Below, piece after piece: positions 9,001-11,641 of a stretch of 11,641 nucleotides of DNA (its first letter is position 1; each line of letters starts with the position of its first letter). Source of the DNA: a virus. Its lineage: Duplodnaviria > Heunggongvirae > Uroviricota > Caudoviricetes. The position numbers were made by a program. The stretch lies in the IMG/VR virus record IMGVR_UViG_2534682001_000007; one strand, given 5' to 3'.

Positions 9001-11641
9001 AATGTACGGCGTAAACGTCGCAGACAACAACTCTGATGGCCCGTAAGGGCTTTTTTTGTACCTGAAATCAGCCCCTGAACGGGGCTGTGCGGAGACAGTT
9101 ATGGCAAAGAATTTTGTAGAAGAAGGAAAAACGGTGGCGATTGTTGCCAGTGCAGCCATCAGCAGCGGAGATCTGGTGCAGGTGGGCGATGTTTTTGCGG
9201 TGGCGCTGACCGATATTCCACAGGGTGAAACAGGCGACGGCATGACCGAAGGTGTGTTTATGCTGCCTAAGCTGAAAACGGATGACATGAAAACGGGTAA
9301 GAAGGTTTATCTGAAGTCAGGAAAAGTTCAGCTGACTAACAGCGGCTCTGATCCGCTGGTCGGGGTTGTCTGGGCAGATGCCGGAACCAGTGCAGAAGAA
9401 GTGCCGGTAAAACTCAATGTCTGATCCCTTTTCCCGGCTGGCAGCGCGTATGGATGCTATCACGGTCAGAAAGATGGGAAAGACAGCCTCGATTAATGAT
9501 GTCGATATGACTGTGATCCCGGGAGAAACACTGGCAGAGCTGAATGCTCTGTCCGGACCTGCGGTCTCTCTGGTGGTGTTTTCTTCGGGATACCGCCCAC
9601 GGCGCGGGGATCGCGTTGTTTATGACGGACAACAATGGACGGTCACACGGCATGAACGCTTTAACGGTAAGCCAATGATCTTTATTGAGTAAAGAGGTGT
9701 GGGATGAAGGGGCTTGAGAATGCCATCCGCAATCTGAACAGCCTTGATACCCGTATGGTGCCACAGGCCAGCGCATGGGCGATAAACCGTGTGGCACAGA
9801 AAGCGGGCTCGGTTGCCACCCGGCAGGTTGCCGGGAATACCGTTGCGGGAGATAACCAGGTGAAAGGGATCCCCCTGAAACTGGTTCGTCAGCGTGTCCG
9901 GGTGTTTAAAGCCAGTCCGTCAGGAAAAATGACGGCCAGGATCCGCGTTAACCGGGGCAATCTGCCCGCCATTAAGCTGGGGACAGCCCGGGTCAGACTG
10001 GCCCAGCGTGGTGGAAAACTGCAGTACCGTGGCAGTGTGCTGAAGGTGGGTAAATATCTTTTCCGGGATGCGTTTATTCAGCAACTGGCGAATGGTCGCT
10101 GGCATGTGATGCGGCGTATTGATGGCAAAAATCGTTACCCCATTGATGTGGTGAAAATCCCGCTGTCCGGACCGCTGACACAGGCATTTGAAGATGCCCG
10201 CGACCGCATCATTGCTGCGGAAATGCCGAAACAGCTGGGGTATGCACTGAAACAACAACTGAGGTTATGGCTGACCCGATGAACCGACATACACAAATCC
10301 GCCAGGTCGTACTGGCACGCCTTCGGGAACAGTGTGGAGACAGCGCCACGTTTTTTGACGGGCTTCCGGCATTTGTTGATGCGCAGGAACTGCCTGCCGT
10401 GGCGGTGTGGCTGAGTGATGCTCAGTACACCGGAAAAATGACGGATGAAGATGACTGGCAGGCTGTTCTGCATATTGCTGTCTTCATCCGGGCACAGGCA
10501 CCGGATTCAGAGCTGGATATGTGGATGGAGAGCACCATTTTCCCGGCCCTGAATGATGTATCGGCACTTTCCGGACTCATCGACACCCTGATCCCACTCG
10601 GTTTTAACTATCAACGTGATAATGAGATGGCCACCTGGGCGATGGCGGAAATCACGTACCAGATCACGTACACGAATTAAGGAGGTGGTAATGACCACGC
10701 CAAATCCACTGGCAAAGACGAAAGGTGCGGGGACGACGTTCTGGATGTATACCGGCAACGGCGATGCGTTTGCGAACCCTTTGTCGGACACTGACTGGCT
10801 GCGTCTTGCGATGGTGAAGGATCTGCAACCTGGCGAAATGACCGCTGATGCAGAAGATGACACTTATCTCGATGATGAAGATGCAGACTGGAAAACGACA
10901 ACCCAGGGGCAGAAATCCGTTGGTGATACTTCGGCGACGCTGGCCTGGCGTCCGGGTGACAGCGGGCAGAAAAAACTGGTTCAGTTGTTCGACTCCGGTG
11001 AAGTCTGCGCGTTTCGTATCAAATATCCCAACGGCACTGTTGATGTTTTCCGCGGCTGGCTGAGCTCACTGGGTAAAACCATTGCCTCAAAAGACGTGAT
11101 GACCCGCACAGTGAAAATCAGCGGTGTGGGGCGTCCATATCTGGCAGAGGAGGGCACTGAAACTGTGGGCGTTACCGGGCTGACGGTGGCACCGGCATCC
11201 GCCAGTGTCAATGTGGGAGCAACCACCACGCTGACCTTTACAGTAAAACCTGACGGAGCCAGTGACAAAGCGATCAGTGTGCATTCGACAGATCCACAGA
11301 CAGCCACTGTGACCCTGAACGGACTTGTGGCCACGGTGAAAGGCGTGAAGCAGGGCAGCGTCAGCATTGTGGGCATGACCGCTGACGGGAATTTTGTGGC
11401 TGTGGCTGCGGTGACTGTCAGCGCTGCAGGTTAACAGGACGATACTCATCATTTTGAACCGCCCCGGGTTTCCTGGAGAGTGTTTTATCTGTGAACTCAG
11501 GCTGCCAGATCATCGTTTCCGATGGAAGCATAATAAGCTTTTTCTGCTTCTGCCGGAGGAGTATGGCCCAGCCTTCCCAGCAATCGTCGATTGTTATACC
11601 AGTCCACCCACGTTAGTGTGGCCAGTTCCACTTCTGCACGG

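What the first reader, a model, noticed from the sequence alone, without database searches (positions are those of the whole stretch)
11435..11641. IS629-like element inserted 21 bp after the major tail gene, where tail-chaperone gene G should start
In lambda, G starts about 15 nt after the V stop (coordinates from memory). Here the V-like stop at 11434 is followed by 21 nt and then an IS3-family terminal repeat with the transposase on the opposite strand. The insertion probably separates V from the G/GT chaperone genes and tape-measure gene, or disrupts the G start, giving a tail-assembly defect or polarity. Together with the portal frameshift this points to a decaying prophage.
Basis: partly seen in the sequence, partly recalled or inferred. 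Interest (0 to 1): 0.5.

Follow-up and report, generated by a model that had tools for sequence, protein, structure and literature searches.

The report
IS629 insertion between prophage tail genes
The window ends in a common E. coli jumping gene (IS629/IS1203) that landed in the short spacer between two tail genes of an already dead O157:H7 prophage without damaging either gene, so it is an ordinary, strain-private insertion.

Summary
Window 11455-11641 is the first 187 bp (right inverted repeat, then the 3' end of orfB on the minus strand) of IS629/IS1203, an IS3-family element. It is 100% identical to thousands of E. coli copies. It starts 20 nt after the major-tail (V-like) stop codon at 11432-11434.

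The closed genome of E. coli O157:H7 PA11 carries the same junction, the only one of 5,426 complete genomes to do so. There the element is a full 1,310 bp, flanked by a 3-bp TTT duplication. The flanks are identical to IS-free strain PA20.

The "G start disrupted" reading fails. In this phage lineage G starts 60 nt after V, not 15 nt as in lambda. The IS lies 40 nt upstream of the G ATG. It leaves intact a conserved terminator-like hairpin, the G ribosome-binding site, and G, T and the tape-measure gene.

The host element is the defective effector-carrying prophage Sp3/CP-933K. Its integrase and portal are frameshifted, bet is truncated, and the immunity and replication genes are missing. Published work shows it is not inducible.

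Any polarity effect is untested and probably irrelevant. Known biology, low interest.

The parts
10691..11434 (+). Major tail tube gene (lambda V-like, 247 aa), intact. Stop TAA at 11432-11434.
   Evidence: Pfam Phage_TTP_12 E=1.2e-66 and Big_2. 55% identity to lambda V by tblastn. Annotated as WP_000211123.1 in PA11, TR01 and PA20.
11435..11451 (+). Left part of the native 60-nt V-G spacer (CAGGACGATACTCATCA).
   Evidence: Identical in IS-free strains TR01 and PA20 and nearly identical in phage mEp460.
11452..11454 (.). Target site TTT, left copy of the 3-bp target-site duplication. The right copy lies beyond the window, at L001 14125-14127.
   Evidence: Empty site reads CATCATTTGCCCC. Occupied site reads CATCATTT-[IS]-TTTGCCCC. 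A 4-bp ATTT duplication with a 1,309-bp IS cannot formally be excluded, because the IS ends in A.
11455..11479 (-). Right terminal inverted repeat (IRR) of IS629/IS1203, read here as its reverse complement TGAACCGCCCCGGGTTTCCTGGAGA.
   Evidence: 22 of 25 positions match the other end of the element in PA11, including the first 13 and the TG...CA termini.
11455..11641 (-). First 187 bp of a 1,310-bp IS629/IS1203 element. The rest runs off the window end.
   Evidence: 100% identity to IS1203-family loci. The complete element is at L001 12815-14124 in PA11, and the full-length copy is 100% identical to copies in other E. coli genomes.
11497..11641 (-). 3' end of transposase orfB: last 47 codons plus stop at 11497-11499.
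   Evidence: Translation RAEVELATLTWVDWYNNRRLLGRLGHTPPAEAEKAYYASIGNDDLAA* equals the C-terminus of the 296-aa OrfB, which carries rve (E=9.3e-28).

Best explanation
A single, recent, simple transposition of IS629 (isoform IS1203, IS3 family) placed a complete 1,310-bp element into the 60-nt non-coding spacer between the major tail gene V and the tail chaperone gene G. The host is the defective lambdoid prophage Sp3/CP-933K of an E. coli O157:H7 strain of the PA11 type. The insertion duplicated the 3-bp target TTT. The transposase points against the phage late operon. No coding sequence, ribosome-binding site or intergenic hairpin was destroyed, so V, G, G-T and the tape-measure gene all remain intact. 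The only plausible effect is on transcription reaching G and the downstream genes through 1.3 kb of untranslated antisense IS RNA. That effect is inferred, not shown. It is functionally moot, because the prophage already cannot excise, replicate or build heads. The prophage persists as a carrier of the type III effectors nleB2, nleC, nleH1 and nleD. The insertion is best read as near-neutral IS629 activity, which preferentially accumulates in O157 prophages.
For: IS identity:
- 186/186 identity to IS1203-family loci.
- The full 1,310-bp copy in PA11 has TG...CA ends and 22/25 inverted repeats.
- OrfA is HTH_Tnp_1 and OrfB is rve/HTH_21.
- There is an ALIL frameshift pseudoknot at 121.5 bits, and RefSeq annotates a programmed frameshift.

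Simple insertion:
- PA11 (IS+) and PA20 (IS-) are identical over 12,814 bp on the left and 10,877 bp on the right, apart from the IS plus TTT.
- Each junction is found in 1 of 5,426 complete genomes, always PA11. About 1,826 genomes carry the empty V end.

Genes intact:
- The same WP accessions for V, G, T and the tape-measure protein occur in PA11, TR01 and PA20.
- Pfam gives Phage_TAC_2 and Phage_tail_T for G and T.
- The hairpin and the G Shine-Dalgarno sequence lie to the right of the IS.

Prophage identity and decay:
- It lies between ybhC and ybhB-bioA, with a frameshifted int, a truncated bet, no cI/cro/O/P, and nleB2-nleC-nleH1-nleD cargo.
- The portal has a +1 frameshift.
- Sp3 is scored portal-defective, with no circularisation, replication or packaging (PMC2669165).

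Context:
- 62% of IS629 copies in O157 lie in prophages, and duplications are 3-4 bp (PMC3271280).
Against: The window stops 187 bp into the IS, so the far end is inferred from PA11. PA11 differs from the window at two bases (333 and 338), so the window's own genome is not formally proven to have the same downstream structure. No expression data exist for the tail genes with and without the IS. The name Sp3/CP-933K rests on map position and cargo genes plus my own knowledge of OI-36, not on a direct alignment to the Sakai or EDL933 records.
Confidence: 0.93

Rival explanations
1. The IS marks a rearrangement breakpoint. Homologous recombination between IS629 copies, or an IS-adjacent deletion, has removed or relocated G/T/H, so the tail module is truncated in the window's source genome.
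For: The window ends inside the IS, so its downstream side is unseen. IS629 is known to cause deletions and polymorphisms in O157 (PMC9943667). The window has two private SNPs relative to PA11, so it may not be the same assembly.
Against: The only genome with this junction has a complete IS with a TTT duplication and perfectly colinear flanks. Left and right junctions co-occur in that same single genome.
Confidence: 0.04
2. The insertion is functionally important. It abolishes tail assembly through strong polarity on G, G-T, H and the downstream genes, or changes their dosage, and this removes the ability of Sp3 tail genes to complement or recombine with other O157 prophages.
For: 1.3 kb of untranslated RNA, antisense to the transposase, now separates V from G. 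Defective O157 prophages can supply functions to one another (PMC2669165). The IS end can pair with the 5' arm of the native V-G hairpin (MFE -30.3 kcal/mol, z=-2.95), so local RNA structure changes.
Against: No strong intrinsic terminator is found on the + strand inside the IS. There is only one weak 5-bp stem in the IRR, and the strong hairpin is the phage's own. Lambdoid late transcription is Q-antiterminated and normally ignores terminators (established knowledge; a Q gene is present). G keeps its own Shine-Dalgarno sequence and was never translationally coupled to V, given the 60-nt gap. The prophage is already non-inducible.
Confidence: 0.1
3. Assembly artefact: a repeated IS end was wrongly joined to the V contig end.
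For: Draft contigs commonly end in IS repeats, and the window ends in the IS.
Against: A closed chromosome (PA11, NZ_CP145942.1) contains the full structure with a target duplication. A chimeric join would not generate a precise TTT duplication at the exact IS termini.
Confidence: 0.02

Closest known systems
IS629 / IS1203 (IS3 family, IS3 group) copies in E. coli O157:H7
   Same: It has the same 1,310-bp length, TGAACCGCCCCGG termini, orfA/orfB with a -1 frameshift and ALIL pseudoknot, an rve DDE transposase and a 3-bp target duplication. It is 100% identical to many O157 copies and sits in a prophage, as most O157 IS629 copies do (PMC3271280).
   Different: Only the site differs. This V-G spacer insertion is present in 1 of 5,426 complete genomes. 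Sp3 is not among the prophages listed as IS629 targets in the four genomes surveyed by Rump et al. 2011.
Other IS insertions in Sakai prophages, such as the IS in nu1 of Sp4 and the IS upstream of the Sp5 lysis region (Asadulghani et al. 2009)
   Same: These are IS elements sitting inside lambdoid prophage late regions. The Sp5 case, like this one, is intergenic and disrupts no coding sequence, and Sp5 still transfers.
   Different: The Sp4 insertion breaks a gene (nu1), whereas this one does not. Here the host prophage is already dead for other reasons.
Lambda V-G-T-H tail module, and phage mEp460 as the viable relative
   Same: Gene order Z-U-V-G-T-H is the same. V, U and Z are 49-55% identical to lambda. 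mEp460 has the same V-G spacer with the same hairpin, which its depositors annotate as a rho-independent terminator.
   Different: Lambda has a 15-nt V-G gap without the hairpin. This lineage has a 60-nt gap, which gave the IS a non-coding landing place.

Membership tests
IS3 family / IS629 (isoform IS1203) | Imperfect terminal inverted repeats ending 5'-TG...CA-3' | tested here: met
   TGAACCGCCCCGG at both ends, 22/25 matches, in the PA11 copy. The window itself holds one end, at 11455-11479.
IS3 family / IS629 (isoform IS1203) | Element length about 1.2-1.55 kb (IS629: 1,310 bp) | tested here: met
   L001 12815-14124 = 1,310 bp. Only 187 bp lie inside the window.
IS3 family / IS629 (isoform IS1203) | Two overlapping ORFs (orfA, orfB) joined by programmed -1 frameshifting with a stimulatory RNA structure | tested here: met
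   A 108-aa OrfA and a 296-aa OrfB lie in the -1 frame. Rfam ALIL pseudoknot scores 121.5 bits against a gathering score of 50. RefSeq annotates a 'programmed frameshift'. Frameshifting itself was not assayed.
IS3 family / IS629 (isoform IS1203) | DDE (rve) catalytic domain in OrfB and an HTH DNA-binding domain in OrfA | tested here: met
   Pfam rve E=9.3e-28, HTH_21 E=3.7e-18, rve_3. OrfA is HTH_Tnp_1 at E=2.4e-12.
IS3 family / IS629 (isoform IS1203) | 3-4 bp direct target-site duplication | tested here: met
   TTT lies on both sides of the IS and occurs once in the empty sites of TR01 and PA20. 3-4 bp is reported for IS629 (PMC3271280).
IS3 family / IS629 (isoform IS1203) | At least 95% nucleotide identity to the ISfinder reference IS629/IS1203 sequence | not testable with these tools
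   No ISfinder reference was available. Indirect support comes from the RefSeq label 'IS3-like element IS1203 family transposase' and 100% identity to copies in O157 genomes. IS1203 is described as an IS629 isoform.
Lambda-type tail module (V, G, G-T, H) | Tail tube protein followed by the G chaperone, a T extension in the -1 frame and a tape-measure gene | tested here: met
   Phage_TTP_12, Phage_TAC_2 and Phage_tail_T. T is in the -1 frame relative to G and open across the G stop, read directly from L001 14501-14600. Tape measure is annotated. Frameshift efficiency was not tested.
Prophage Sp3 / CP-933K (O-island 36) of O157:H7 | Integrated between ybhC and ybhB-bioA; carries nleB2, nleC, nleH1, nleD; lacks immunity and replication genes; defective int and portal | tested here: met
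   The Sp3 defect table in PMC2669165 matches: repressor absent, replication absent, integration defective, portal defective, tail genes present. The name assignment rests on these features plus my own knowledge, not on direct alignment to the Sakai record.

The most novel reading that the evidence does not exclude
The insertion may not be neutral. The left end of the IS (CCGGGGCGG) can pair with the 5' arm of the conserved V-G terminator hairpin. In read-through late transcripts this would replace the native terminator with an alternative stem and change the V : G/T/H expression ratio, or uncouple the Sp3 tail genes from the 'defective prophage pool'. A wider version, that IS629 is drawn to IR-like or hairpin sequences, was tested on 111 independent flanks and found no support.
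Probability: 0.05. Interest if true: 0.25.

Novelty: already known. Interest (0 to 1): 0.08.

Why it matters
It matters little beyond strain typing. IS629 insertion sites are used to discriminate O157:H7 lineages (IS-printing; this is my own knowledge, not checked here). A private insertion in Sp3 is a usable marker for the PA11 lineage. It also shows that lambda coordinates cannot be carried over to lambdoid relatives. The longer V-G spacer in this lineage means that what looks like a gene-start hit is a harmless intergenic insertion.

Tried and rejected
1. IR-mimic or hairpin targeting. The target hairpin arm shares an 8-mer (GCCCCGGA / TCCGGGGC) with the IS ends, and the IS sits exactly at the foot of the hairpin. 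I scanned genome contigs for the IRL end and extracted 111 unique IRL-side flanks. I compared the adjacent 50 nt with control windows 150-350 nt away. Matches of 8 nt or more to the IS ends occurred in 2/111 flanks versus 7/297 controls. Mean MFE was -8.5 versus -9.2 kcal/mol, and MFE at or below -15 occurred in 9/111 versus 38/297. There is no enrichment, so the resemblance here fits chance. The only visible trend is mild base bias: position -2 is A/T in 88/111 flanks and position -1 is C/G in 74/111.

2. Lambda portal comparison. tblastn of lambda B, C, E, W and G found no hit in the window; only A, Z, U and V matched. G lies beyond the window end, behind the IS. The head module is not lambda-like at sequence level. 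I located the portal frameshift with mEp460 instead.

3. Outward promoters. The scan found no sigma-70-like site in the IS region on either strand, so there is no evidence for IS-driven G expression.

4. Source of the window. I looked for a complete genome matching window SNPs 333 and 338 and found none; all best hits are 99.0%.

5. Published flank sequences. The supplements of Rump et al. 2011 contain no flank sequences.

6. Technical note. Locus L002 (TR01) was not exported to the Python sandbox, so PA20 (L004) was used for the base-by-base comparison.

Full report
**Observation.** The V-like gene occupies window 10691-11434. Pfam gives Phage_TTP_12 at E=1.2e-66 plus a C-terminal Big_2 domain, and tblastn gives 55% identity to lambda V. 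It stops with TAA at 11432-11434.

From 11455 to the window end the sequence reads TGAACCGCCCCGGGTTTCCTGGAGAGTG... Bases 11456-11641 match 'IS3-like element IS1203 family transposase' loci at 186/186 identity, E=8e-92. In all, 6,258 records from 4,105 of 5,426 complete E. coli genomes hold a match. The minus strand of 11497-11640 encodes the last 47 residues and stop codon of the transposase OrfB.

The one correction is that the IS starts at 11455, 20 nt after the stop rather than 21. IS-free orthologues align up to exactly 11454.

**The far end, from a closed genome.** A 1,001-bp query spanning the junction is fully matched by one record, E. coli O157:H7 PA11 (NZ_CP145942.1). Many other O157:H7 genomes match only up to the IS boundary. 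Junction-specific 120-bp queries for the left and right junctions are each found in 1 of 5,426 genomes, again PA11.

In PA11 (locus L001; L001 coordinate = window coordinate + 1360) the features are as follows:
- The element is 1,310 bp long (12815-14124).
- It has TG...CA termini, and 22 of 25 positions match between the inverted repeats.
- It encodes a 108-aa OrfA and a 296-aa OrfB in the -1 frame.
- OrfA is HTH_Tnp_1, and OrfB carries HTH_21 and rve.
- Rfam finds the ALIL frameshift pseudoknot at 121.5 bits.
- RefSeq annotates an intact transposase with a programmed frameshift.
- The full element is 100% identical to copies in other E. coli genomes.

The empty site in TR01 and PA20 reads ...GGTTAACAGGACGATACTCATCATTTGCCCCGG.... 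The occupied site reads ...CATCATTT-[IS]-TTTGCCCCGG.... This is a 3-bp TTT target duplication. A 4-bp ATTT duplication is formally possible, because the IS ends in A.

PA11 and PA20 are base-for-base identical over 12,814 bp to the left and 10,877 bp to the right of the insertion. This is a clean, recent, simple transposition.

**Position relative to G.** This phage lineage differs.

In the IS-free strains V ends at locus position 12794 and G starts at 12855, a 60-nt spacer. From left to right the spacer contains:
- 17 nt of unique sequence;
- the TTT target;
- a 7-bp all-GC hairpin followed by T6 (GCCCCGGTTATCCGGGGCTTTTTT);
- the G Shine-Dalgarno sequence and start codon (GGTGGAGAACATG).

The same hairpin, with one G-C to G-U change, occurs in the viable lambdoid phage mEp460. 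Its depositors annotate it as a rho-independent terminator.

The IS sits immediately 5' of the hairpin and 40 nt upstream of the G ATG. G (Phage_TAC_2), T (Phage_tail_T, in the -1 frame and open across the G stop) and the tape-measure gene follow intact. They carry the same RefSeq protein accessions as in IS-free strains.

So "separates V from G/GT/H" is right. "Where G should start" and "disrupts the G start" are not.

**Likely consequence (inferred).** A late transcript now has to cross 1.3 kb of untranslated RNA, antisense to the transposase, before it reaches G.
- The consensus scan finds no strong intrinsic terminator on that strand inside the IS. There is one 5-bp stem in the IRR, and the strong hairpin is the phage's own.
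- The scan finds no promoter-like site that could drive G from inside the IS.
- Lambdoid late transcription is Q-antiterminated (established knowledge; a Q gene lies upstream). Strong polarity is therefore not expected, but this is untested.
- The IS left end (CCGGGGCGG) can pair with the 5' arm of the native hairpin (MFE -30.3 kcal/mol, z=-2.95). That might replace the terminator structure in read-through RNA. This is a curiosity only.

**The host prophage.** The element lies between ybhC and ybhB-bioA. Its features are:
- a frameshifted integrase;
- a truncated bet;
- a deletion joining bet to ninE, so there is no cI, cro, O or P;
- the effector cargo nleB2, nleC, nleH1-1 and nleD after the tail fibres.

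This is the signature of Sp3/CP-933K (O-island 36). The name is assigned from my own knowledge plus the feature match.

The portal is split by one extra base near window 6556 relative to the 502-aa mEp460 portal. The split is present in IS-free strains too.

Asadulghani et al. 2009 (PMC2669165) score Sp3 as follows. It lacks repressor and replication functions. Its integration, recombination and portal functions are defective. Its tail functions are intact. Experimentally it shows no circularisation, replication or packaging.

The prophage was therefore dead before the IS arrived. The "decaying prophage" conclusion is right, but the IS is a late and minor addition to the decay.

**Comparison with what is known.**
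- IS629 is the most abundant IS in O157:H7, with 23 copies in Sakai (PMC9943667).
- 62% of its sites in four O157 genomes lie in prophages or prophage-like elements, and it makes 3-4 bp duplications (PMC3271280).
- IS1203 is an IS629 isoform and is the main O157 sub-type.
- IEE-promoted excision makes such insertions reversible.
- Sp3 is not among the prophages listed as IS629 targets in that four-genome survey, and the site is private to PA11 among closed genomes. The RefSeq record already annotates it.

Nothing here departs from the known behaviour of the element.

**A lead followed and rejected.** The IS abuts a hairpin whose arm shares an 8-mer with the IS ends. I therefore asked whether IS629 prefers IR-like or hairpin targets. 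A genome-contig scan for the IRL end gave 111 unique flanks. Compared with control windows in the same loci, there is no enrichment of IR-like 8-mers (2/111 versus 7/297). There is also no enrichment of stable local structure (MFE at or below -15 kcal/mol in 9/111 versus 38/297). The resemblance fits chance.

**Verdict.** This is an already-known kind of event, annotated in a public genome. It is correctly spotted, one base off, and over-interpreted as to its effect on G. Interest is low.

Noticed in passing
window 333 and 338: Two substitutions 5 nt apart (C and A where PA11, PA20 and TR01 have T and T), just after a T8 run and inside the minus-strand hypothetical ORF 199..597. No complete E. 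coli genome carries them; all best hits are 99.0% over window 236-435. They could be draft-assembly errors or private SNPs, and they show that the window is not literally the PA11 RefSeq record.
   Followed up: partly
L004 12812-12835 (empty site); L001 14128-14145; L007 8751-8774: A conserved terminator-like hairpin (7 GC pairs, TTAT loop, T6 tail) sits in the 60-nt V-G spacer of this phage lineage. It is annotated as a rho-independent terminator in viable phage mEp460. Lambda has only a 15-nt V-G gap. It may set the V : G/T/H ratio or stabilise V mRNA.
   Followed up: partly
window about 6556 (portal ORFs 5461..6585 and 6680..7042): The portal gene is split by a single extra base relative to the intact 502-aa mEp460 portal (TCTGAATTTTTT versus TCTG-AGTTTTT). 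The same split is annotated in IS-free O157:H7 strains, so it predates the IS.
   Followed up: yes
L001 14101-14145: In the IS-bearing allele the IS left end CCGGGGCGG can pair with the 5' arm (GCCCCGG) of the V-G hairpin. The predicted alternative stem (MFE -30.3 kcal/mol, z=-2.95) would compete with the native terminator structure.
   Followed up: partly
L001 14540-14565: The G/T overlap has GGAAAAG (0-frame CCG GAA AAG) where lambda, from my memory, has G GGA AAG. T is open in the -1 frame across the G stop. The slippery site looks less canonical than lambda's but is identical in IS-free strains.
   Followed up: no
L005 10114-10997 and 12436-13610: The prophage left arm joins a truncated bet directly to ninE, so the immunity and replication region is deleted. 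It also carries an lpxR-like lipid A deacylase gene between a partial antiterminator gene and Q.
   Followed up: no
loci L008, L014, L025, L027, L067, L072 and others: Exact IS629-type IRL ends occur in assemblies labelled Martelella alba, Lachnospiraceae MAG, Dormiibacterota MAGs, Saccharimonadales MAG and Terriglobia MAG. This probably reflects enterobacterial contamination or mis-binning rather than true hosts.
   Followed up: no
111 IS629 IRL-side flanks: There is mild target base bias next to the IS. Position -2 is A or T in 88/111 flanks and position -1 is C or G in 74/111. The TTT/AAA target here fits the first trend but not the second.
   Followed up: partly
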